From contig DATLDE010000005.1 of NCBI GenBank assembly GCA_035526025.1, positions 125,690-189,689 on the forward strand: 64,000 bases of DNA. Reading direction: 5' to 3'. The translations under genes were made by a program, and so were the position numbers. The notes beneath the pieces are model-generated. The model had not been told where the DNA came from and did not search any database. It saw only the letters and a list, made by a program, of their open reading frames with translations. Shown here in pieces: positions 17,918-35,275 of this stretch. Every line of letters begins with the position of its first letter. The first letter of the stretch is position 1. The stretch comes from Candidatus Limnocylindrales bacterium. GTDB lineage: Bacteria > Patescibacteriota > Microgenomatia > Levybacterales > UBA12049.

Positions 17918-20749
17918 TCAAATTTGTCCAAAACCGTATTTGCTTTCTCTTTTTTTAAAGGCTTCTTCTCCACCTTCAAGAATATCTTTAATTTTTATAT
18001 TAATAATCGGATTTTCTATGGAACCACTTATGTATCCTTTATTATCATCTTGATCTAATTGAGAAACAATTACTTGTTCAGCGTCAGCATTTACAACAAG
18101 ATTTGCATTATGTGTTGATAATATAATCTGTCTCACTTTTTTGATTCTTTTAATAAGGGGAACAAGCTGATTCATGATAAAGTGATTATCTAAGTTATCC
18201 TCAGGTTGATCAACGATAAATATTTGCTTAACACTAGCTGTTGCTAGATAGATTTTTAGCAATAATGTCCCTCTTTGTCCTACCGACAGTTTTTCTGTAG
18301 GGATTTCTTTTAATCGTGCAATTGCCTTAACGTGAATAAATTCATGCCATTTTGTAAATATGAAGTCAATAAATCTATTTATTCCACCTTCATTAAAATT
18401 CTCTTCTTTAAGGAAACTATTCAAATTATTATTAATCCACAGAGCCAATGAATCGAGTGTTATGTCTTTTATGATACCTTTGTCTTTTCCAGCTATGATC
18501 TCTTTAATATCTTGAGCTGATCTTACTCTTCTCCTATCAACGCAGCTGTTTAGAATGTAGTTACAAAATATTTCTTGCTTAAAATCAATTGCTCCCTCAA
18601 TACTAATATCACTTATAATATTCTTAAATAATTCCTTCTCATCTGTTGAGGAACTGTCCCGAGAGCTAGTAAACTCTATAAACTTCTCATCTATTATATC
18701 CTTGCTCAGTTTAACTTCTTTTATAATCTCAGAGTATAAATCGTTTCTCTCTTCTATCTTTTTGATAAGAATTTTTCTTTTTTCTTCATATGTTACAAGA
18801 TCCCTTGATGCATTATTAATTTCTTTTTGAATCGCCTCTATAGATTGCACCAGAGCAGTTATATCCTCTTTTATACCCAATGTAGAAAGCTTTATCTTTT
18901 TTTCTTCAATGGATTTATTAAGTTGTGTAATCTCTTCCCATACCTTTTTTTGTAAAATTTTAATAGATTTTTCTTGAGTATCAAGTACTATTTCTGGAAT
19001 TAATTCCAGATTTTCCTTGTACAAATCTTTCTGTGCTCTATTTAAGTCTGCTATTTCTTTATTGAGAGTAATAGATTTAACTCTTACAAGCAGATCCTCT
19101 ATATCGCTTGAGAAATCCCTAAGGCGCATCTTTCTGTCAATTTCTTTACTTATTTCTTCTAACAACTTCTTCGTTTCCTCTGATGAGAGTGTTTTCTTCT
19201 GAATTGATTTTCTATCAATATAGTTCCTTAACCATTGTTCAAAAGAAATTTGTTTTTTAAAATCAGGATATTTTTGATGTATATCAATAATTTCTTCTCT
19301 TATTATGTTGACGTCTGCTATTAAATTCCTTGCTACTTCGATTAATTGAGGCTTCTCAATATCTGAAAAATTTAAACTGATTAGCTCGCATACTTTTAAA
19401 GTAAGCTCTTTATCGTCTGTAGCTATCAAACTGAGTTGTTCTTGTCCAATGTACAAAAATGGTAAACTTAAGCTTTCAGAATCATCTAAAGTTTTCCCAA
19501 ACTCTTCTTGATTATTATCTTTATCAATCAATTTTGCCTTCAATGAAAATCCTGGAGAAGGATTTTTTAATTCAACGTTATCTCTATAAAATTCAATTAA
19601 CTTAGGCTTACCATTTTGGTCAGCTTTAGCATGTTCTTCATTTAAAAATGCAACTAAGTCTAAAAAAGCACTCTTTCCGCTTCCCCGGCCTCCAATGATT
19701 GTTACTAGCTCCCTGTTAAGGTAGAATTCTGCATTTGGGACGATAAAATTAACACTACCCTCTAAACTTATTTCATCAATATAAACTTTTTTTCTATCTT
19801 CAAAAGGGGATAGTTTCTGTATCTTAACTCTTTCTCCTGGTTCGTAAATGATTTGCTTTAAACCATCAAAGGTGGTGTCTGCTTTGATCCAACAAAATCT
19901 CATATCACAAGTGTCTGAACTTAAACTACAAGTGTGCCCTCTTTCTCCTCTCCTTGCGCAGGGTAACCCGATTTGCTCCAAGCTATGTGCATCTGAACCG
20001 TGGATGCAGGATTTTAGATTTCCATGTTTTCTGATAATTTCATCTTTATTATCAACGCCATTTCCTAAAAAATACGTAAAATCGTTTGGATTTCCAGAAA
20101 AAATACAGTGAGAAAACCTATAAATTTCTTGTCTTGTAGCGGATAAGCTAGAATGCTGAATCCCTGAGTTGCCATCCCTACTACTATTGGATACTACAAT
20201 TACAGAGTTATCTCTTAGTTCTTTATCTTTGGAAAAAATTTGCTGTAAGTTTGTAAGGTTTGTTTTAAATTGATTGACGCCCGCTTCATATGAAGCTTGC
20301 TCTGACAATGTTTCATCATTTGAATACTTCCTTCCTAGATTAATTAAATTGTCCTTAATACATTTATATGTTTCTCCTTGATATGTAAACTCAAGGCTGG
20401 AAAAAAATTTACTTTCTAAGGTATCGACGATTGAGGGATTAAAAATAATATGTAAATTTATTGGTGTTGACGTATCCGTTACTGGAACAATCCTTAATTC
20501 TACGTTTGGAAGAATCAAATCAATATTGGTTAAGTTACTATTATCTCTAATATATTTATATCCATCTACAGAAAAATAATCAGTTATCCCTACAACTGCA
20601 GTATCAGTTAATGTAGATAATTTTTCTAAGTACTTTTCCCATTTCTCTTCTATGGAAGACCCTTCAAATTGATTGTTGAGCGCAGAAACAGGAGAATGGA
20701 TATGCAAATCCCATTTTCTCCATTCAGATCCGCGTATGTATTTATCCAT
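17918..20749 (-). CDS. PHP-domain phosphoesterase fused to SMC/Rad50-like ABC ATPase with coiled-coil insert
   Basis: 943 aa; N-term 'WDLHIHSPVS...GITDYF...HGSDAHS' gives PHP motifs; 'IIGGRGSGKS' Walker A; a roughly 250-aa K/E-rich coiled coil; 'LSVGQRG' ABC signature; 'IFIVDQPEDNLD' Walker B/D-loop; 'LSTHNANL' H-loop. Confidence 0.7.
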   Translation of the reverse strand: MDKYIRGSEWRKWDLHIHSPVSALNNQFEGSSIEEKWEKYLEKLSTLTDTAVVGITDYFSVDGYKYIRDNSNLTNIDLILPNVELRIVPVTDTSTPINLHIIFNPSIVDTLESKFFSSLEFTYQGETYKCIKDNLINLGRKYSNDETLSEQASYEAGVNQFKTNLTNLQQIFSKDKELRDNSVIVVSNSSRDGNSGIQHSSLSATRQEIYRFSHCIFSGNPNDFTYFLGNGVDNKDEIIRKHGNLKSCIHGSDAHSLEQIGLPCARRGERGHTCSLSSDTCDMRFCWIKADTTFDGLKQIIYEPGERVKIQKLSPFEDRKKVYIDEISLEGSVNFIVPNAEFYLNRELVTIIGGRGSGKSAFLDLVAFLNEEHAKADQNGKPKLIEFYRDNVELKNPSPGFSLKAKLIDKDNNQEEFGKTLDDSESLSLPFLYIGQEQLSLIATDDKELTLKVCELISLNFSDIEKPQLIEVARNLIADVNIIREEIIDIHQKYPDFKKQISFEQWLRNYIDRKSIQKKTLSSEETKKLLEEISKEIDRKMRLRDFSSDIEDLLVRVKSITLNKEIADLNRAQKDLYKENLELIPEIVLDTQEKSIKILQKKVWEEITQLNKSIEEKKIKLSTLGIKEDITALVQSIEAIQKEINNASRDLVTYEEKRKILIKKIEERNDLYSEIIKEVKLSKDIIDEKFIEFTSSRDSSSTDEKELFKNIISDISIEGAIDFKQEIFCNYILNSCVDRRRVRSAQDIKEIIAGKDKGIIKDITLDSLALWINNNLNSFLKEENFNEGGINRFIDFIFTKWHEFIHVKAIARLKEIPTEKLSVGQRGTLLLKIYLATASVKQIFIVDQPEDNLDNHFIMNQLVPLIKRIKKVRQIILSTHNANLVVNADAEQVIVSQLDQDDNKGYISGSIENPIINIKIKDILEGGEEAFKKRESKYGFGQI

Positions 20750-29089: not shown

Positions 29090-29219
29090 ATAAATATATA
29101 ATATTTATATATGGGATTAAATGTCAAGAACTAAAACTAGTAACTACATTATCTCAATGCAAATATTAAAATAAACTAAAGGTTTCATCCTTATGTTCTC
29201 AAGTATGTAAGGGTGTTTG

Positions 29220-29522
29220 TTATTCCGATTGGAATGTTTTTATGAAGATTGCGAGTTTTTTACCGTATGGAGAAAGTTTATGTTCCCGAAATTTTCCTCG
29301 ATAATTTTTATCAATTAGTCCTGCGACATGTAGTCTTCGCGTATGTTCACCTATTGTTTTCTCATTGGCTTTAATCTTCTCAACTATACCTTCAAGTGTT
29401 ATTCCTGGTTGGTCATGAATAAGAATAAGTATCTGAATACGATAATGATTGGAGATACCCTTAAAATGCCTTTCCATCTGCTTTGCAGTCTTTACAGAAG
29501 CCATAAAATTATTATTCCACAA
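29220..29522 (-). CDS. ArsR/SmtB-family wHTH transcriptional regulator
   Basis: 100 aa; 'HYRIQILILIHDQPGITLEGIVEKIKANEKTIGEHTRRLHVAGLI' HTH pattern; non-ATG start in ORF table, ATG (MASV) a few codons in. Confidence 0.55.
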   Translation of the reverse strand: MWNNNFMASVKTAKQMERHFKGISNHYRIQILILIHDQPGITLEGIVEKIKANEKTIGEHTRRLHVAGLIDKNYRGKFREHKLSPYGKKLAIFIKTFQSE

Positions 29523-29524
29523 TA

Positions 29525-29870
29525 CCCTTACATTCTCAAGTATTTAAGGGTGATTTAACAGATGAGCTACAACATACACAACATCCTCATATTCTCGGGT
29601 ATTTAAGGGTGTTGAGTGGTGAATAGAGGCATGGTAAATCTAAATAAAATGCTCGCTTGGTTTAAACTAAAATTGAATGATCCGCTGCAACCCCTACCCG
29701 AAGTCTAATTAAAATAATCAAAACATCCTTACATTCTCAAGTATTTAAGGGTATTGTGCGACAATAATTGGAATAATTGGTTTGAAAACAATAAGTATAT
29801 TTTTTACTTAATTTGAACGAAAGTTGAATGACTCGCTGAAAGCCTTTCCAGAAATCTAAAAATGATGTAA
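29525..29870. repeat. Intergenic tandem repeats: three copies of a 27-nt palindromic motif CCTTACATTCTCAAGTATTTAAGGGTG (fourth copy near 29189..29215) plus a duplicated 40-nt motif TTGAATGA.CGCTG.AA.CC....GAA.TCTAA
   Basis: Motif copies at about 29525, 29585, 29727 and 29189; each has CCCTTA...TAAGGG inverted arms; second motif at about 29668..29712 and 29826..29868; coordinates +/-2 nt. Confidence 0.7.
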
Positions 29871-29893: not shown

Positions 29894-31378
29894 TTAGGAC
29901 TGCTTGAGCTTGACTAAGTGCTTATAGATCTCAACCATAGCCAGAGTATCAAGGCCACAATACTTTATCAGATCATCAAGGATTTGTTCTTTTTCTGCAT
30001 TTCGCTCTCCATACAGAATTGCCTCCATCCACAATCTTTGAGCTGAAGCTCCTTCCTGTATGCCAAGCGTTTTGTAGGACAATTCGGGAGCAAGAACAGG
30101 TAGAACTGCTTTTATTGAGGCACTGCCCCCAAATCCCTTATCAACATACCAACTACTTGAAAAGGGAATCATCAGATCAACGATCCGATTATTCACCTCC
30201 TCATAAAATTCCTTGTACTCAGTAAGGATTGTTCCAAGTAGCGTGTTACAACTTTTTTCAAACCCCGCGCTCCAGGCCAGAATCGATCCTGTGGTACCAA
30301 TTTGTGATTTAAGATTTTTACTAATCTCCTCAGCAGGATTGGAATTATCACTATGTAGATATTCAAAATGCCTGATCTCAGAATCAGGCGTCTCCAGAAC
30401 ATCCAGGGAATATTGAAAAGGAAGCTGTTGATACGCGCGGAGGTCATCAAAATATGGGACAATGCCACCCAGGGTCTCATAATCAAGAAAATAAAGAGGG
30501 TAAATAAGACTGGATAGAAAATCTCTGATTTTTTCTTTCTCTATCAGGACTCTATTTTGTTTGACTGATTCTACCTGTTGCTTTTGTTTGCCAGACAGTG
30601 GAAAGTCAGATGGTATTTCGTTAAGTTTCTTCACTTTCAATTCGTCAAATTTGCTAAGCAATTTGGTGTTAAGTACACATAAGTCATAAATGCTTTCAGG
30701 CTCAACACTGACCAACCCACGATAAATTCCAAGCCATTCTTTGAGAGATCCATACGCAGCAAGTGAAGGGGAAATATCAGGCATGACTTCTGAGTTGGCA
30801 ACTTTTAGAGCTGCCTTTATATTATCCTCGGTAAATTTTCTTTTGGCTTTTACGTTTTCTGTTATGTCTACAATAGTTGTAAATTCACCAGGGACTATAT
30901 CACCACGCTTAATATATTCATTATTAACATGAATTACTGAAATATTGCGAACTGTGTTTCCGCATAGCTCAAGTACAATCATTTGAAAAGCCAGATCTAG
31001 CTCGTGCTCTAATTTCACCTTTGTACTTGATTTTATTTCGTATAAATCAACTGTTTTTTCATCAACGATCTGGATTACATCACACACAAAAGTTAACTGA
31101 CTGTGTTCAAATCTTCCCTGGAATATCGTTTTTGCTCCCTCTTTTATAGCTCTTTGCGTACGCTCAGGTAGGCTCAGATATTCATAATAATCATCAAATC
31201 CTAGCCTTACTCCCTCAGGAAATAATTGCTCAGCATATGTTTCAAACAAATGACCCGCATCAAATACAGCTTGAGTGTTGTCATCAATTATAGGAAGCTT
31301 TGCTTTATCGTGTTTCTTAAGCCACAGCCATGCCGGGTGCTTGAGAAACATCATGTATTCTGATTTAGACAAAAGCAT
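29894..31378 (-). CDS. DUF2779-like PD-(D/E)XK (RecB-family) nuclease domain protein
   Basis: 494 aa; N-term 'LSKSEYMMFLKHPAWLWLK'; 'VDLYEIKSS' (D-x-E-x-K); C-terminal 'YFLDYETLGGIVPYFDDLRAYQQLPFQYSL' matches the DUF2779 hallmark. Confidence 0.6.
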   Translation of the reverse strand: MLLSKSEYMMFLKHPAWLWLKKHDKAKLPIIDDNTQAVFDAGHLFETYAEQLFPEGVRLGFDDYYEYLSLPERTQRAIKEGAKTIFQGRFEHSQLTFVCDVIQIVDEKTVDLYEIKSSTKVKLEHELDLAFQMIVLELCGNTVRNISVIHVNNEYIKRGDIVPGEFTTIVDITENVKAKRKFTEDNIKAALKVANSEVMPDISPSLAAYGSLKEWLGIYRGLVSVEPESIYDLCVLNTKLLSKFDELKVKKLNEIPSDFPLSGKQKQQVESVKQNRVLIEKEKIRDFLSSLIYPLYFLDYETLGGIVPYFDDLRAYQQLPFQYSLDVLETPDSEIRHFEYLHSDNSNPAEEISKNLKSQIGTTGSILAWSAGFEKSCNTLLGTILTEYKEFYEEVNNRIVDLMIPFSSSWYVDKGFGGSASIKAVLPVLAPELSYKTLGIQEGASAQRLWMEAILYGERNAEKEQILDDLIKYCGLDTLAMVEIYKHLVKLKQS

Positions 31379-31490
31379 ATTTTGTAATTTATCGCGATAA
31401 ATTATTTTTTATGTTTGGGATAATAATATTGGGCCAATATTGTAGGATTATAACTTGTTATCTGATAGATGTCCATTAGCCTATGAGTGA

Positions 31491-33005
31491 CTATTCATAC
31501 TGCAGATGAGATGCAAAAAGCTCTACTTCCTTCCGATCTATAACAGCATCAAGATTTTTAATACTTTCGTAATCAATATATTTTGCATCGTCAAGCAATT
31601 TCTTTAAGTCCGCAGGCAATTCCCATTTTGAGCTAAAAAGCTCTAAATTTTCACCGGTGGCATTTCTACATAGTTTTTCTTCAAAAAGAAAATAAATACT
31701 GTGTTTTATAGCAATTCTTTGTAACCATATTTCCAAAAGCCCAGAATTTGGTAATAAATTAATTTTTCGGAGTAACTTGTCTAGAACTTCCTTCTTACTC
31801 TCATGTGCCCTTTTATCAATAGCCTTACTAATTAATACAGCAACTATCGGAAAAGATCTTGGATTTTCATATGCAATATTAATAAGAATACTTATGATTT
31901 CAATATAATTATTTCGAAGTAAGGTAACTCTAACAGTATCATTTAGCCTCATTAATCTAATATTTACAGCACCACAATTAGGGTGGCTTGTCCCTATTGA
32001 ATATATAGTTAAAAGTTCATTCCGGAGTGTTTTTTTTGTGATCGTATTTGATAATGGCAACTTAAGCATGGCCAATTTATCTGGTTTAATTGAATCAGTA
32101 ATAATACTATCACTTTTTTTAGTTTTTGCGGTGTTTAGTGCCATACCAAGCTTAGCAAGTACCTCACTTAAGGACTTCATGATTAATTCTCCGTCTTTAG
32201 GATTTCGGACAAAAATTCTATAATCATCACGATAACGAAGAATTCTATATGAATCTTTACTAAGTAACTTTATTTTTTTAGAAAGTTCATGATCAGCGTA
32301 AGATAAAACTATCTCTGCAATAAAATCCATTAACACACTTCCTTGGGGTATTCCATTTGTTTGGCCATTGGACATTGCTTGAAGATGATGGTCAATTTTA
32401 TTGCCTAAAAGTTGATTATAATTTCGCTTCTCTTTTGAAATAGACTTTTCATGTAACGCCCATGCTATAGAGTGAGTATAAACAGAACCATAACAATTAA
32501 CAATGTCAGTTTGAAATAAATATTCAAAATCTAATGCTAAACGTATAGATTCTTTTTCAATCAAATCAAACCATTCATTCACCTGAGTGGCTTGTTGTTT
32601 CTTATTGGTATCGCCAATAACAGGCAAGCTTATACAGCTTATCGAATTATTGAATGAAAGACTTTTAAATCTGCTACAAATTATTTCCCAAGAGTCTCTA
32701 GCAGTGATAAGATTAACAAGCGAAACATATAGTACTGGATTAATTAATTCGTATTTTCTCCATGCATAATTACCATCTTTATTTCCGTAGATAATATGAT
32801 TTATATTCTCAGCGCTTTTAGCAGTCATAAGATTTTTTTCTGGGATGGGCCCTCCTCGCAATTTTTTAGAAAGTACCAACAAAGTCTTTTCAAATTCAAA
32901 GTATGGAGGCAGGTCCATACTAAAATATTTTTCTTGATTAAGGAAGAATTTATTAGCTTTTCTGCAATCTAATTTCAGAATGTTACTCCTCATAGTATCT
33001 ACCAC
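31491..33005 (-). CDS. Stand-alone reverse transcriptase (defence-associated/Abi-like RT candidate)
   Basis: 504 aa; motif A 'TDIVNCYGSV', motif B 'NGIPQGSVLMDFIAEIVL', motif C 'RYRDDYRIF' (YxDD); roughly 200-aa alpha-helical C-terminal extension; no maturase/En domain. Confidence 0.7.
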   Translation of the reverse strand: MVDTMRSNILKLDCRKANKFFLNQEKYFSMDLPPYFEFEKTLLVLSKKLRGGPIPEKNLMTAKSAENINHIIYGNKDGNYAWRKYELINPVLYVSLVNLITARDSWEIICSRFKSLSFNNSISCISLPVIGDTNKKQQATQVNEWFDLIEKESIRLALDFEYLFQTDIVNCYGSVYTHSIAWALHEKSISKEKRNYNQLLGNKIDHHLQAMSNGQTNGIPQGSVLMDFIAEIVLSYADHELSKKIKLLSKDSYRILRYRDDYRIFVRNPKDGELIMKSLSEVLAKLGMALNTAKTKKSDSIITDSIKPDKLAMLKLPLSNTITKKTLRNELLTIYSIGTSHPNCGAVNIRLMRLNDTVRVTLLRNNYIEIISILINIAYENPRSFPIVAVLISKAIDKRAHESKKEVLDKLLRKINLLPNSGLLEIWLQRIAIKHSIYFLFEEKLCRNATGENLELFSSKWELPADLKKLLDDAKYIDYESIKNLDAVIDRKEVELFASHLQYE

Positions 33006-33105: not shown

Positions 33106-34209
33106 CTATATATTACCTTTCCGTCGATTGTCTTCCCTGCATAACATCTGGCAATTCACAGTTAATGTTTTTCCACCCTCTACCCATGGCGTAATGTGAT
33201 CTGCTTCCATTTCTTCTATATCAAATCTATTTTTACAAAAACGGCAAACACCGTTCTGTCTCTCATATGCTTCCCTCCTCATTCTGTCAGTAAATGCACG
33301 TATACTTAGATAATTCTCCTTCCTCGTGAGAACGTAAGGGTAAATCCCAGATTTCTTTGTTACATCTTCATCTTGCATTAATACTTTTATTTCTTCTTCA
33401 AGTTTTACAGTATTTAGCTTTTGCTCATTAAATTGATTGTAGAGATCACCCCAATTTACATTTGCCATTTCTCTTCTGTAATTCGGGAACGCTTTTCGCA
33501 CCCAAGAGATAACGTCTTGAAAGTAATTCCATAACTCATCTGCATTTTTATCATGTTGATGTTTGGCCATGTAATCCGCAATTTCACCATTGTTAATCCA
33601 AGAAAGTGAAGTTTCTAAGTATTCTTGCCTTATCGGTGAACCCGCCAAAAGGGAACCACCATCATTGGCCAATAGATATGCAGCACAATTTGTTTTGCTG
33701 AATTTGAGTTTTGCATCAGACAACCAAGGGCCAGTATAAACAGCATTTTTAAGTTCCTGATCCGTAAGTTTTTCACCTGCAATATTAATAATTCTGAACC
33801 AATCCAAACGCTCTTTGTCTGTGCCTTCACAAAAATAAATCATTAATTGATAATCCAAAATCTGATTCTGTTCGTCAGGAGTTAAGTTGTGGAACATTGC
33901 TAATCTGCCATTAAAATCTACGGAAAAGTCGCCATTTACAAATTGTGCAAGACTAATTGTTCTTTGTTGGCCATCAAGTACTTCATATCCACCATCTTCT
34001 CTCACAACCCAGTACATCACATTAAGTGGGAACCCATTCCTGACAGTATCAATGACTGCATCTCGTTGTGTATCTTTGTAGATAAATTCGCGCTGGTATT
34101 TGGGACGAATATCAAGTTTGCCACAATATCCTACAACACCTTCTTCAGCATTGTCTGTATATTCATCAACTACTTCTCGCACTTTTATTTTTTGTAACTC
34201 AATCTTCAT
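33106..34209 (-). CDS. DUF262 (ParB-like, DGQQR) + C-terminal HNH nuclease protein, GmrSD-like
   Basis: 367 aa; 'VLDGQQRTISLAQF' DUF262 motif; C-term 'CRFCKNRFDIEEMEADHITPWVEGG...NCQMLCREDNRRKGN' HNH. Confidence 0.7.
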   Translation of the reverse strand: MKIELQKIKVREVVDEYTDNAEEGVVGYCGKLDIRPKYQREFIYKDTQRDAVIDTVRNGFPLNVMYWVVREDGGYEVLDGQQRTISLAQFVNGDFSVDFNGRLAMFHNLTPDEQNQILDYQLMIYFCEGTDKERLDWFRIINIAGEKLTDQELKNAVYTGPWLSDAKLKFSKTNCAAYLLANDGGSLLAGSPIRQEYLETSLSWINNGEIADYMAKHQHDKNADELWNYFQDVISWVRKAFPNYRREMANVNWGDLYNQFNEQKLNTVKLEEEIKVLMQDEDVTKKSGIYPYVLTRKENYLSIRAFTDRMRREAYERQNGVCRFCKNRFDIEEMEADHITPWVEGGKTLTVNCQMLCREDNRRKGNI

Positions 34210-34213
34210 ATTA

Positions 34214-35275
34214 CTAGACCTTTTTTCGTATCAAAATACGTCCATATTTAAGTTTGCCACTGATGTAAGGACCATCTTTGCCTGACGCAGAAGTAATTCC
34301 TGCTAAACCTTTGATGTTTCCTGCAATGAGACCAACTATTTCAAATTGTTCAGGGTTGTATTTATCTACAAATGTAATAGGGACACCCATTACACCATCG
34401 TGGTCTACAGGAATATCAGAAACTTTATTGACATTTATTGCGTTGTAATTGTCATACTTGAGAAACTCTTCTGGAGTATATTTCTTATATAATGTTAACT
34501 CTTGATGACGTTTTGTAGTTTCTAAATTTGTGAACCATAAAATTCTCCCCATACTGAAATACTTTACTCCATTCACAATCTTCTTTCTCGATTCTGTTGG
34601 GATATCATAGTCCATCGGAACCTGAAACCACTTTGTGCCACCATTGTCATTACCAAGCCACAATTTATTGTCTTTAATTAGCTTGAAAATCTCTTTGTAG
34701 GTAATGGCATTTTGATCACCAAGAATCAAAAAATTCTTCTTAAATTCAGTAAGCTGGGCTATATATTCACGAAACAAGGAGAAAGGAGGATTGGTGACGA
34801 CAATATCAGCCTCATTGAGTAGTTCAATGCACTCTTTACTTCTAAAATCTCCATTTTCTTTTAAAGGTGTTGACACGTTAGCATCACGTTTCAAAAGCCA
34901 CTCTACGTCTGTTAAATCTATGGCACCATCAGTATTTTTATCTGGCACGTCATTAATTTCAATCTTAAAAGGCTTTTTTCCTTCAGGTTTTAAACCTTGT
35001 ATTTCAAGAAGTGGGAGCTGTCCACCTGCAATAGAAGATTGGTCAAAACTCGTAGTTATAAGTTTCTTTAGTCCTAATGCATTAAAATTTGCAGCAAAAT
35101 ATTTGAAGAAATTGCTCTCAAAAGGATCATCACAATTACAATATACTACCTTGCCACGAAATTGATCCTTGTAATGCTTCAATTCTTTTTCAATGTCAGT
35201 TAACTGCGTATAAAACTCATCCTTCTTGGCTTTACCTGCCTTACCTAAGTTTGTATTTAATGATTTTGAATTCAT
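34214..35275 (-). CDS. N6-adenine DNA methyltransferase-like (gamma-class, NPPF motif)
   Basis: 353 aa; 'IVVTNPPFSLF' motif IV; upstream 'CDDPFESN' degenerate motif I; stop 4 nt from DUF262-HNH start. Confidence 0.5.
   Translation of the reverse strand: MNSKSLNTNLGKAGKAKKDEFYTQLTDIEKELKHYKDQFRGKVVYCNCDDPFESNFFKYFAANFNALGLKKLITTSFDQSSIAGGQLPLLEIQGLKPEGKKPFKIEINDVPDKNTDGAIDLTDVEWLLKRDANVSTPLKENGDFRSKECIELLNEADIVVTNPPFSLFREYIAQLTEFKKNFLILGDQNAITYKEIFKLIKDNKLWLGNDNGGTKWFQVPMDYDIPTESRKKIVNGVKYFSMGRILWFTNLETTKRHQELTLYKKYTPEEFLKYDNYNAINVNKVSDIPVDHDGVMGVPITFVDKYNPEQFEIVGLIAGNIKGLAGITSASGKDGPYISGKLKYGRILIRKKV

What the first reader, a model, noticed from the sequence alone, without database searches (positions are those of the whole stretch)
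29894..33005. Reverse transcriptase adjacent to a DUF2779-type PD-(D/E)XK nuclease: candidate RT-nuclease defence pair
A 504-aa RT with intact motifs A, B and C (YRDDY) and a roughly 200-aa helical C-terminal extension lacks intron-maturase, endonuclease or DGR accessory features. It is followed on the same strand, after 112 nt, by a 494-aa RecB-like nuclease with the DUF2779 'PFQYSL' hallmark. Stand-alone RTs of this size are typical of defence-associated RTs (Abi/DRT/UG classes), and pairing with a PD-(D/E)XK nuclease is not a combination I can place in a described system. A perfect 18-bp palindrome AATTTATCGCGATAAATT lies just upstream of the nuclease gene (about 31386..31405). The 100-nt region upstream of the RT could hold a cognate ncRNA.
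Basis: partly seen in the sequence, partly recalled or inferred. Interest (0 to 1): 0.75.

Follow-up and report, generated by a model that had tools for sequence, protein, structure and literature searches.

The report
AbiP2 defence polymerase beside DUF2779 nuclease
The reverse transcriptase is a member of the already known AbiP2 anti-phage family, and the two-domain nuclease next to it is a frequent neighbour of many kinds of defence genes rather than its dedicated partner, although relatives of this enzyme are followed by a nuclease gene often enough that a looser link deserves a test.

Summary
On the minus strand, an RT (33005/32993..31491) is followed after 112 nt by a 494-aa DUF2779 protein (31378..29894), with a perfect palindrome just before the nuclease start.

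The RT is not unplaced. It is a full-length AbiP2 (PADLOC E 2e-174; PDB 7R08 E 6.5e-124), with the catalytic YRDD and the priming tyrosine conserved. AbiP2 needs no ncRNA, and none was detected.

DUF2779 is a Cas4-like PD-(D/E)XK domain fused to a DEDDy exonuclease domain. The genes sit in a defence island directly after a type II restriction-modification pair.

The specific RT-DUF2779 pairing is rare. It was absent from 112 RT loci and 97 DUF2779 loci found by scans, and appeared once (L174) among nine close RT relatives looked up individually. DUF2779 follows many other defence systems instead. The closest RT relative carries a lipase in that position.

However, in the roughly 20-locus candidate-phyla-radiation (CPR) clade holding this RT, about half the RTs are followed by some nuclease: Cas4-like in 6, DEDDy in 2, DUF2779 in 2.

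Most likely these are independent island modules (0.55). A facultative RT-nuclease partnership remains possible (about 0.3).

The parts
31491..32993 (-). AbiP2-family reverse-transcriptase-like polymerase (500 aa from ATG 32993; the ORF extends to GTG 33005). It has an RT palm/fingers domain plus an Abi-specific helical domain. The priming Tyr is Y35 and the catalytic motif is Y258-R-D260-D261 (504-aa numbering).
   Evidence: PADLOC AbiP2 PDLC03744 E 2.3e-174, covering residues 5-500 against profile positions 3-486 of 489. Pfam RVT_1. The homologue profile matches PDB 7R08 (Abi-P2) at E 6.5e-124 over positions 3-494. Tyr61 of Abi-P2, shown to prime synthesis, aligns with Y35, which is invariant in 34 sequences.
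29894..31378 (-). DUF2779 dual nuclease. The N-terminal domain is a Cas4-like PD-(D/E)XK (D100, E114-x-K116, Q132). The C-terminal domain is a DEDDy 3'-5' exonuclease-like domain (D299-x-E301 ... Y473-x3-D477), and includes PFQYSL at 320-325.
   Evidence: Pfam PF11074 E 4.9e-34, with weak Cas_Cas4 and RNase_H_2 hits. Catalytic residues are invariant in 33 homologues. The AlphaFold model has pLDDT 87.9. Foldseek matches Cas4 4r5q, EXO5 and AdnAB for the N-terminal half, and DnaQ 8h18 (TM 0.61 normalised by target length) for the C-terminal half. The same architecture is described for MMSYN1_0389 (PMC13621843) and family F.17 (PMC3985635).
31447..31475 (-). Sigma-70-like promoter match (TGGACA-17-TATAAT, 11 of 12) in the RT-nuclease spacer. 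It hints that the nuclease has its own promoter.
   Evidence: This is a consensus match only; the number of such sites in the region is not above shuffles.
31385..31404 (.). Perfect 20-bp palindrome TAATTTATCGCGATAAATTA, 6 nt upstream of the nuclease start codon. It could be an operator or a weak 5'-UTR hairpin.
   Evidence: 0.54 palindromes of at least 18 bp expected per window. The spacer as a whole folds no better than shuffles (z = -0.44). It has no other copy in the window and is not conserved in other DUF2779 loci.
33106..34209 (-). Type II restriction endonuclease (GmrSD_N/ParB-like N-terminal domain plus a C-terminal HNH), immediately upstream of the RT.
   Evidence: Pfam GmrSD_N and HNH. 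PADLOC REase_II E 1.4e-141. Homologues at 73-74% aa identity lie next to AbiP2 in L005 and next to SIR2-HerA plus DUF2779 in L094.
34214..35275 (-). EcoRI-type N6-adenine DNA methyltransferase, the partner of the REase.
   Evidence: Pfam EcoRI_methylase E 3.5e-139. PADLOC MTase_II E 2.7e-132.
29169..29755 (-). A 100-aa winged-helix regulator gene (29522..29220) bracketed by copies of a hairpin element ACCCTTAcATTCTCAAGTATtTAAGGGT. Two further copies lie in the spacer towards the nuclease.
   Evidence: Repeat family D1. Weak MarR/ArsR/HTH_24 hits. The cassette with its bracketing elements is 77.5% nt identical in L167, downstream of the closest RT relative.

Best explanation
The region is a small defence island in a low-GC genome that resembles candidate phyla radiation (CPR, Patescibacteria) genomes. 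It is built from modules that act on their own.

The modules, in gene order on the minus strand:
1. A type II restriction-modification pair (EcoRI-type methylase plus GmrSD_N-HNH endonuclease).
2. An AbiP2 polymerase.
3. A separately transcribed DUF2779 nuclease.
4. A small winged-helix regulator cassette.

What is shown:
- The family assignment of the RT and the conservation of its residues.
- The domain architecture of the nuclease.
- The variability of neighbours in homologous loci.

What is inferred:
- By homology to E. coli Abi-P2 and L. lactis AbiK, the RT works as an oligomer. It uses its own tyrosine (Y35 here) as primer and makes random single-stranded DNA without any RNA or DNA template. 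In a way still unknown for the whole family, this aborts phage infection.
- The DUF2779 protein (Cas4-like PD-(D/E)XK plus DEDDy exonuclease) is a DNA-end processing nuclease. In CPR genomes it habitually lies at the downstream end of highly variable defence cargo.
- Its place next to the RT reflects island modularity, not a dedicated two-gene system.
- Independent action of the modules and the biochemical activities in this organism are also inferred.
For: RT identity:
- AbiP2 profile E 2.3e-174, full length.
- PDB 7R08 at E 6.5e-124.
- The priming Tyr and YRDD are invariant.
- Mestre et al. 2022 class AbiP2 among stand-alone multi-domain proteins.

No ncRNA.

Pairing is not conserved:
- No DUF2779 in 80 genome RT loci or 32 viral RT loci.
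- No AbiP2 in 85 metagenome or 12 viral DUF2779 loci.

DUF2779 has many other upstream neighbours:
- These include type I, II and III RM, Gabija, SIR2-HerA, SMC/AAA ATPases, a retron, and dnaG-rpoD.
- No neighbour family has more than 3 members among 76.
- PADLOC families hit: 391 and 497 for the two upstream genes, against 29 for the downstream gene.

Natural module swaps:
- L094 has the same RM pair (73% aa), then SIR2-HerA, then DUF2779.
- L005 has the same RM pair, then AbiP2, with no DUF2779.
- The closest RT relative (67% aa, L166/L167) keeps the RT and the wHTH cassette (82% aa) but has a GDSL lipase where the window has DUF2779.
- The DUF2779 gene of L174 is 91-93% nt identical to copies in unrelated contexts, with homology ending at the gene borders.

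Spacing: the 112-nt spacer compares with a median of 13 nt for same-strand upstream neighbours of DUF2779. It carries an 11/12 promoter-like match.
Against: - The adjacency does recur once, independently. In L174 an AbiP2 (51% aa identity) is followed after 101 nt by a DUF2779 (45% aa identity) on the same strand.
- In the NJ clade containing the window RT (22 entries, about 20 distinct loci), about half the RTs are directly followed by a nuclease gene on the same strand. These are Cas4-like Fe-S nuclease in 6 loci (5-9 nt gap), DEDDy exonuclease in 2, DUF2779 in 2, and HARE-HTH/PDDEXK_5 in 1. Three more distinct loci have such a nuclease within 3.5 kb.
- The Cas4-like and DEDDy families are not general island residents. 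They give 0 hits and 2 weak hits among 835 genes of the DUF2779 loci.
- The window holds no stand-alone copy of either family, so DUF2779 is the only candidate for that role.
- The sampling of close RT relatives is small (9 look-ups).
Confidence: 0.55

Rival explanations
1. Facultative RT-nuclease system. In the CPR clade of AbiP2, the polymerase works together with a DNA-end nuclease encoded just downstream, and different lineages have recruited different nucleases. In the window, DUF2779 (Cas4-like plus DEDDy) fills the position taken by a stand-alone DEDDy exonuclease in the nearest sister loci.

The likely logic is as follows. AbiP2 makes ssDNA whose 5' end is blocked by the protein and whose 3' end is free. 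A 3'-5' exonuclease would keep this product short in uninfected cells. Phage interference with the nuclease, or protection of the ssDNA, would let it accumulate and trigger abortive infection. Alternatively, the nuclease is the effector.
For: - Clade-specific nuclease neighbours: roughly 13 of 22 loci in the clade against 0 of 67 other genome loci and 0 of 32 viral loci.
- The Cas4-like partner sits 5-9 nt after the RT stop in 6 loci from different CPR lineages, and carries the 4-Cys and D/DxK/QxxxY motifs.
- The partnership is kept even where partners were exchanged: L008 and L050 share 90% RT identity but only 63% nuclease identity.
- A DEDDy gene follows the RT in L168 and L169, the second and third closest relatives.
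- RT-DUF2779 adjacency occurs a second time in L174.
- The Cas4-like and DEDDy families are essentially absent from other CPR defence islands sampled.
- Precedents: UG7 RTs with a PD-(D/E)XK partner in only part of the family (PMC9226505), and host exonuclease SbcB restraining DRT10 cDNA (bioRxiv 10.64898/2026.04.29.721553).
Against: - DUF2779 itself is a promiscuous neighbour of many unrelated systems.
- The closest RT relative has no adjacent nuclease, and several clade members have none at all.
- The spacer is 112 nt with a promoter-like site.
- DUF2779 is only remotely related to the small nucleases; hhalign was not significant.
- E. coli Abi-P2 protects and polymerises on its own (PMC9508834; PMC9226505).
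Confidence: 0.3
2. A dedicated, obligate two-gene RT-DUF2779 defence system of a new type.
For: Same strand and adjacent in the window and in L174.
Against: - There were 0 co-occurrences in 112 scanned RT loci and 97 scanned DUF2779 loci.
- Near-identical DUF2779 genes occur without an RT.
- The closest RT relatives lack DUF2779.
- The RT belongs to a family that functions alone.
Confidence: 0.04
3. The RT belongs to a retroelement (group II intron, DGR or retron) or to a DRT that needs a neighbouring ncRNA template.
For: Only the generic RVT_1 match and the existence of a 100-nt upstream spacer.
Against: - The best profile by about 115 orders of magnitude is AbiP2.
- Group II and retron structures match only at E 1e-5 to 1e-3 over the palm.
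- No maturase or endonuclease domain is present.
- No Rfam family matches, there is no excess structure, and no TR/VR-like direct repeats.
- The upstream spacer is not conserved with the closest relative.
Confidence: 0.01

Closest known systems
Abi-P2 of P2-like coliphages (PDB 7R08; Figiel et al. 2022, PMC9508834)
   Same: - Full-length homology covers the RT-like palm/fingers and the Abi-specific helical domain (E 6.5e-124).
- The catalytic YRDD and the priming tyrosine (Tyr61, equivalent to Y35 here) are conserved.
- It is located among defence genes.
   Different: - The host is a CPR-like uncultured bacterium rather than an E. coli prophage hot spot.
- The RT shares at most 43% identity with any viral-contig relative, most of which are 32-41% identical.
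- It belongs to a clade whose members are often followed by a nuclease gene.
AbiK (L. lactis) and DRT4/UG15: other protein-primed, template-independent Abi/UG class 1 polymerases
   Same: They share the same overall architecture and presumably the same chemistry.
   Different: They are much more distant. The AbiK structure matches at E 7e-17 over the palm only, and the PADLOC AbiK profile at 3.7e-30.
UG7 RT plus PD-(D/E)XK nuclease (Mestre et al. 2022, PMC9226505)
   Same: It is an Abi/UG class 1 RT accompanied by a PD-(D/E)XK nuclease in part of the family only. This matches the pattern seen in the CPR AbiP2 clade.
   Different: The RT group and the nuclease family are both different. The association has not been reported for AbiP2 in the texts searched.
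DUF2779/PF11074 proteins such as MMSYN1_0389 of JCVI-syn3.0 (PMC13621843) and RNase H-like family F.17 (PMC3985635)
   Same: It shows the same fusion of a Cas4-like PD-(D/E)XK domain to a DEDDy exonuclease domain. The catalytic residues are conserved and the Cas4 four-cysteine cluster is lacking.
   Different: The mycoplasma gene is quasi-essential and is discussed as a solo Cas4. The CPR subfamily here (60-80% identical across lineages) sits after variable defence cargo. No function has been tested for any member.
Cas4 and the Cas2-DnaQ domain (CRISPR prespacer-trimming nucleases)
   Same: These are the best structural matches to the two halves of the DUF2779 model (4r5q and 8h18).
   Different: No CRISPR array or cas genes are present in the region, sequence identity is only 10-15%, and there is no Fe-S cysteine set.

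Membership tests
AbiP2 (Abi/UG class 1 reverse-transcriptase-like polymerases) | Full-length similarity to the family profile, best among RT classes | tested here: met
   PADLOC PDLC03744 E 2.3e-174, residues 5-500 against profile 3-486 of 489. The next best is UG14 at 2.4e-59.
AbiP2 (Abi/UG class 1 reverse-transcriptase-like polymerases) | RT palm with catalytic aspartates (motif A Asp, motif C YxDD) | tested here: met
   D167 and Y258-R-D260-D261 are invariant or nearly invariant in 34 homologues. Pfam RVT_1 E 7e-13.
AbiP2 (Abi/UG class 1 reverse-transcriptase-like polymerases) | Abi-specific C-terminal helical domain in place of a thumb | tested here: met
   The profile aligns to Abi-P2 structure 7R08 through position 494 of 499. 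The domain is described in PMC9508834. This rests on sequence; the RT structure was not modelled here.
AbiP2 (Abi/UG class 1 reverse-transcriptase-like polymerases) | Priming tyrosine on the alpha2-alpha3 loop (Tyr61 in Abi-P2) | tested here: met
   Chain residue Y61 in 'ELPAYINF' aligns with 'DLPPYFEF'. Y35 is invariant in 34 sequences.
AbiP2 (Abi/UG class 1 reverse-transcriptase-like polymerases) | Template-independent, protein-primed DNA synthesis by a trimer or hexamer; abortive-infection phenotype | not testable with these tools
   This needs biochemistry and phage assays.
AbiP2 (Abi/UG class 1 reverse-transcriptase-like polymerases) | Stand-alone gene without a conserved partner | tested here: inconclusive
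   There is no conserved partner across 80 genome and 32 viral loci. Within the CPR clade, however, a nuclease follows the RT in about half of the loci.
DUF2779 (PF11074) dual nucleases | Match to PF11074 above the gathering score | tested here: met
   117.7 bits against 23.3, covering the whole 126-position model.
DUF2779 (PF11074) dual nucleases | N-terminal Cas4/RecB-like PD-(D/E)XK core with D...ExK | tested here: met
   D100, E114 and K116 are invariant. Weak Cas4 profile hits. Foldseek Cas4 4r5q probability 1.00, plus EXO5 and AdnAB.
DUF2779 (PF11074) dual nucleases | C-terminal DEDD(y/h) RNase H-like exonuclease core | tested here: met
   D299, E301, Y473 and D477 are invariant. Weak RNase_H_2 hit. 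The DnaQ domain 8h18 matches with TM 0.61 normalised by target length. The middle acidic residues were not assigned with certainty.
Canonical Cas4 | Four-cysteine Fe-S cluster and linkage to cas1/cas2 and a CRISPR array | tested here: not met
   The sequence has no CxxC...CxxC set. No repeats resembling an array are present, and no cas genes appear among the neighbours.
Dedicated multi-gene RT-nuclease defence system (as for UG7 plus PD-(D/E)XK) | The RT and this particular nuclease co-occur in homologous loci | tested here: not met
   0 of 112 scanned RT loci and 0 of 97 scanned DUF2779 loci. There is one recurrence (L174) among 9 looked-up relatives.
Group II intron, DGR and retron RTs | Maturase/En domain, intron RNA, TR/VR repeats with Avd, or msr-msd ncRNA | tested here: not met
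   No such domains, no Rfam match, no suitable repeats, and no structured upstream RNA.

The most novel reading that the evidence does not exclude
AbiP2 polymerases of the CPR clade are two-component systems in which a DNA-end nuclease is an interchangeable partner. The partner may be a Cas4-like Fe-S nuclease, a DEDDy exonuclease, or the DUF2779 fusion of both domain types. It would trim or release the tyrosine-linked ssDNA made by the RT and so set the threshold for abortive infection.

A corollary concerns DUF2779. It is quasi-essential in the minimal mycoplasma cell and sits at the end of many CPR defence islands. It may be the general DNA-end processing nuclease on which defence systems rely in these reduced genomes, possibly in place of RecBCD/AddAB. 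The presence or absence of RecBCD/AddAB in these genomes was not checked here.
Probability: 0.3. Interest if true: 0.65.

Novelty: new member of a known kind. Interest (0 to 1): 0.42.

Why it matters
How AbiK and AbiP2-type polymerases actually stop phages is still unknown. Only the chemistry of protein-primed random ssDNA synthesis has been solved.

If the nuclease genes that follow AbiP2 in CPR genomes are true partners, they would point to the missing downstream step, namely processing or sensing of the ssDNA. That step would become testable with simple two-gene constructs.

The survey also gives the uncharacterised DUF2779 family its first reproducible genomic signature. The gene lies co-oriented at the downstream end of highly variable defence cargo. 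This is a lead to the function of a gene kept in the minimal synthetic cell.

If neither link holds, the locus is an ordinary defence island with a known RT.

Tried and rejected
- **ncRNA upstream of the RT.** There was no Rfam hit at gathering or relaxed thresholds, and folding energy was not better than shuffles. The region is not conserved with the 67% identical relative. Rejected.
- **Retroelement RT classes.** Rejected on profile scores and missing accessory features.
- **Palindrome as a conserved operator of DUF2779 genes.** It was not found upstream of 76 other DUF2779 genes or in L174, and it has no second copy in the window.
- **Apparent 'RT_UG29' hits two genes upstream of DUF2779 in L115 and L149.** These turned out to be DnaG primases matching the primase part of that profile, within dnaG-rpoD operons. 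Not RTs.
- **Direct homology between the small RT-linked nucleases and the halves of DUF2779.** hhalign was not significant (E 0.068 and 0.46), although the catalytic motifs line up. They share a fold class and are not close kin.
- **A single dominant partner of DUF2779.** Clustering of 76 upstream neighbours gave no family with more than 3 members. In plasmids of Aliarcobacter, Rhodoferax and Selenomonas, the gene sits among large ATPases and other defence-like genes.
- **DUF2779 in phages.** There was no match in 50,697 phage records.
- **Solved structures.** The DUF2779 profile gave only weak, probably spurious J-domain hits.


Full report
**1. The observation**

Both genes lie on the minus strand.
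- The RT ORF runs 33005..31491 (504 aa from GTG). Homologue alignment and an independent gene call make the ATG at 32993 (500 aa) the likely start.
- After a 112-nt spacer, a 494-aa ORF runs 31378..29894.
- The RT carries motif A (D167), motif B (QTNGIPQGS) and motif C (YRDDY, residues 258-262).
- The second protein matches Pfam DUF2779 over the whole model (117.7 bits) and contains PFQYSL at 320-325.
- The palindrome is real and slightly longer than reported: 20 bp at 31385-31404, ending 6 nt before the nuclease ATG.
- A window of this composition is expected to hold about 0.5 perfect palindromes of at least 18 bp, and 2 are observed. It is only mildly unusual.
- The palindrome has no second copy in the window and no counterpart upstream of other DUF2779 genes.

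**2. What the RT is**

Against PADLOC profiles, the protein is a full-length AbiP2 (E 2.3e-174). The next class, UG14, scores 2.4e-59.

[quoted passage not shown] AbiK, DRT3b and UG15 structures match far more weakly. Group II intron and retron RTs match only marginally.

Figiel et al. (PMC9508834) showed that Abi-P2 is a trimer or hexamer. It makes DNA without a template, primed by its own Tyr61. The helical C-terminal domain replaces the template strand. In the alignment, Tyr61 corresponds to Y35 of the window protein, which is invariant in all 34 sequences.

No ncRNA is expected for this family, and none is detectable:
- No Rfam match at either threshold.
- The 112 nt upstream of the RT folds no better than shuffles (z = +0.53).
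- DNA similarity to the closest relative starts only inside the coding sequence.

**3. What the nuclease is**

The N-terminal third has an invariant D100...E114-x-K116 and Q132, a Cas4/RecB-like PD-(D/E)XK core. The C-terminal third has D299-x-E301 and Y473-x3-D477, a DEDDy core.

An AlphaFold model (pLDDT 87.9) matches Cas4, EXO5 and AdnAB nuclease domains with one half. The other half matches a DnaQ domain.

This agrees with published sequence analyses of the family (PMC3985635; PMC13621843). Those analyses also note that the member in the minimal cell JCVI-syn3.0 is quasi-essential. No member has a tested function.

The window protein has thousands of homologues. More than 100 of them are 59-80% identical, and those that carry a source name are labelled Patescibacteria lineages.

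**4. The surroundings**

Directly upstream of the RT, on the same strand, lies a type II RM pair. It consists of an EcoRI-type methylase (35275..34214) and a GmrSD_N-HNH endonuclease (34209..33106).

Downstream of the nuclease lies a repeat-rich spacer and a 100-aa winged-helix gene bracketed by hairpin elements.

The spacer between RT and nuclease contains an 11/12 sigma-70-like match (31475..31447) and no terminator-like site.

**5. Is RT+DUF2779 a conserved pair?**

Scans found no co-occurrence from either side.

| Collection | Loci | Co-occurrence |
|---|---|---|
| AbiP2 loci, species-representative genomes (±6 kb) | 80 | none encode a DUF2779 homologue |
| AbiP2 loci, viral contigs | 32 | none |
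| DUF2779 loci, metagenomes (±7 kb) | 85 | none encode an AbiP2-like RT |
| DUF2779 loci, viral contigs | 12 | none |

The gene upstream of DUF2779 is on the same strand in 60 of 68 non-redundant loci, with a median gap of 13 nt. It is extremely variable. Examples include:
- type I, II and III restriction enzymes and methylases;
- Gabija GajA/GajB;
- SIR2-HerA;
- SMC/AAA_13/AAA_21 ATPases;
- GmrSD;
- a retron;
- dnaG-rpoD, in two loci.

No neighbour family exceeds 3 of 76 members. The two upstream genes hit 391 and 497 PADLOC families, while the downstream gene hits 29.

Three natural comparisons are telling:
- L094 has the same RM pair as the window (about 70-73% aa), then SIR2-HerA, then DUF2779.
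- L005 has the same RM pair, then AbiP2, but no DUF2779.
- The closest RT relative (67% aa, L166/L167) shares the RT and the winged-helix cassette (82% aa, 77.5% nt including its hairpin elements). It has a GDSL lipase where the window has DUF2779.

One further RT-DUF2779 adjacency exists. In L174 the RT is 51% identical, the gap is 101 nt, and the DUF2779 is 45% identical. Copies of that DUF2779 gene with 91-93% nt identity lie in unrelated contexts, with homology ending within about 35 nt of the gene ends.

The specific pair is therefore rare and has been assembled more than once from mobile modules.

**6. The complication: a nuclease theme in this RT clade**

A neighbour-joining tree of 89 RTs places the window RT in a clade of 22 entries. 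All are at least 47% identical to it, and those from named genomes are mostly labelled Patescibacteria lineages. L001 equals L172, and L166/L167 are near-duplicates, so about 20 loci are distinct.

| Neighbour of the RT | Position | Loci |
|---|---|---|
| Cas4-like nuclease, about 250 aa (PDDEXK_1/Cas_Cas4, CxxC...CxxC, DDxW/DYK/QxxxY) | 5-9 nt downstream | L002, L004, L005 (split), L006, L008, L050 |
| DEDDy exonuclease, about 210 aa (RNase_H_2/DNA_pol_B_exo2) | 46-67 nt downstream | L168, L169 (65% and 60% identical RTs) |
| DEDDy exonuclease | within 3.5 kb | L166, L172 |
| Cas4-like gene | 2.4 kb away | L170 |
| HARE-HTH/PDDEXK_5 protein | immediately downstream | L010 |
| DUF2779 | 101-112 nt downstream | window, L174 |

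Further points bearing on this theme:
- None of the three families occurs near the 67 RTs outside the clade or the 32 viral-contig RTs.
- The Cas4-like and DEDDy families are almost absent from the 835 genes of the DUF2779-linked islands (0 hits and 2 weak hits). They are not generic island furniture.
- L008 and L050 have 90% identical RTs but only 63% identical Cas4-like partners. The partnership is kept while partners are exchanged.
- The 64-kb window contains no stand-alone copy of either small nuclease.
- The small nucleases and DUF2779 are not detectably close relatives.
- Mestre et al. list AbiP2 as stand-alone, but describe a comparable partial association of UG7 RTs with a PD-(D/E)XK nuclease.
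- I found no report of an AbiP2-nuclease association.

**7. Weighing**

For the window itself, the simplest reading is a defence island of independent modules (0.55). The RT is AbiP2. DUF2779 is a separately transcribed nuclease whose habitual position is the downstream end of variable defence cargo.

The facultative-partner model (about 0.3) is kept alive by the clade-specific nuclease theme and by L174. It proposes a concrete mechanism. AbiP2 products have a protein-blocked 5' end and a free 3' end, which is the substrate of a DEDDy 3'-5' exonuclease. Such trimming would parallel the restraint of DRT10 cDNA by host SbcB.

An obligate new RT-DUF2779 system (0.04) and a retroelement RT (0.01) are essentially excluded.

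**8. Verdict**

The RT is a new member of a known family and the reported pair is not a new system.

The residual interest lies in two leads found on the way:
- the AbiP2-nuclease operons of CPR genomes;
- the consistent position of DUF2779 at the edge of defence islands.

Noticed in passing
L002 7513-8262, L004 7525-8274, L006 2077-2829, L008 2938-3687, L050 7515-8270, L005 4998-5643 (split): A conserved Cas4-like Fe-S nuclease of about 250 aa lies 5-9 nt downstream of AbiP2 in six loci, five labelled as CPR lineages and one (L006) as an archaeal bin. This looks like an undescribed two-gene AbiP2 variant. L168 and L169 carry a DEDDy exonuclease of about 210 aa in the same position.
   Followed up: partly
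window 29169-29755; L167 8687-9051; L166 8671-9006: A hairpin element ACCCTTAcATTCTCAAGTATtTAAGGGT occurs four times, and two copies bracket a 100-aa winged-helix gene. The bracketed cassette is conserved (77.5% nt, 82% aa) downstream of the closest AbiP2 relative. A 49% aa homologue lies 5.3 kb from the RT in L050. It may be an autoregulated island regulator.
   Followed up: partly
L081-L165, L175-L186 (DUF2779 loci): DUF2779 genes of CPR genomes lie co-oriented at the downstream end of very diverse defence cargo (RM I/II/III, Gabija, SIR2-HerA, SMC-like ATPases, a retron). Genes downstream of them are mostly not defence genes. No single partner family dominates.
   Followed up: partly
L174 6610-8171 compared with L159 6970-8534 and L153 1255-2806: DUF2779 genes that are 91-93% nt identical sit in unrelated contexts, and homology stops within about 35 nt of the gene ends. 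The gene behaves like a shuffled cassette rather than a fixed chromosomal anchor.
   Followed up: partly
L010, L013-L017, L019-L021, L024, L029, L033, L043, L049, L056, L069, L075, L079: In other phyla AbiP2 is embedded in type I RM operons, with an HsdS-like gene directly upstream (often a 4-nt overlap), an HsdM-like gene before it, and an HsdR-like gene of about 1040 aa after it. In the window, L005, L166, L171 and L174, the RT also abuts RM genes.
   Followed up: partly
window 33106-35275; L005 1275-3453; L094 45-1878: The EcoRI-methylase plus GmrSD_N-HNH endonuclease module is shared at about 70-74% aa identity by three loci with different downstream cargo (AbiP2+DUF2779; AbiP2+split Cas4-like; SIR2-HerA+DUF2779). 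This is a clear case of modular island shuffling.
   Followed up: yes
window 17918-20749 (-): A 943-aa SMC_N/AAA_21-like ATPase lies next to an HTH_3 gene, 9 kb from the nuclease. It is weakly homologous (26% over 399 aa) to the 919-aa ATPase that directly precedes DUF2779 in L089.
   Followed up: no
whole window: NCBI labels the source contig 'Candidatus Limnocylindrales' (Chloroflexota). However, GC is about 0.31-0.48 in the 20 kb profiled, and the close homologues of the genes examined that carry a name are Patescibacteria/CPR. The contig may be mis-binned.
   Followed up: no
window protein 29894-31378 (-), residues 178-234: The linker between the two nuclease domains gives weak profile hits to DnaJ J-domains (E 0.007-0.08). 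These are probably spurious helical similarity.
   Followed up: no
L219 (Aliarcobacter pM830MA), L221 (Rhodoferax plasmid), L220 (Selenomonas pSRC1): Distant DUF2779 genes on plasmids also sit among defence-like genes. Their neighbours include SbcCD-like and other large ATPases, dGTPase, WYL, PLD plus DEAD helicase, and NERD. In Aliarcobacter and Rhodoferax a large ATP-binding protein directly precedes the gene.
   Followed up: partly
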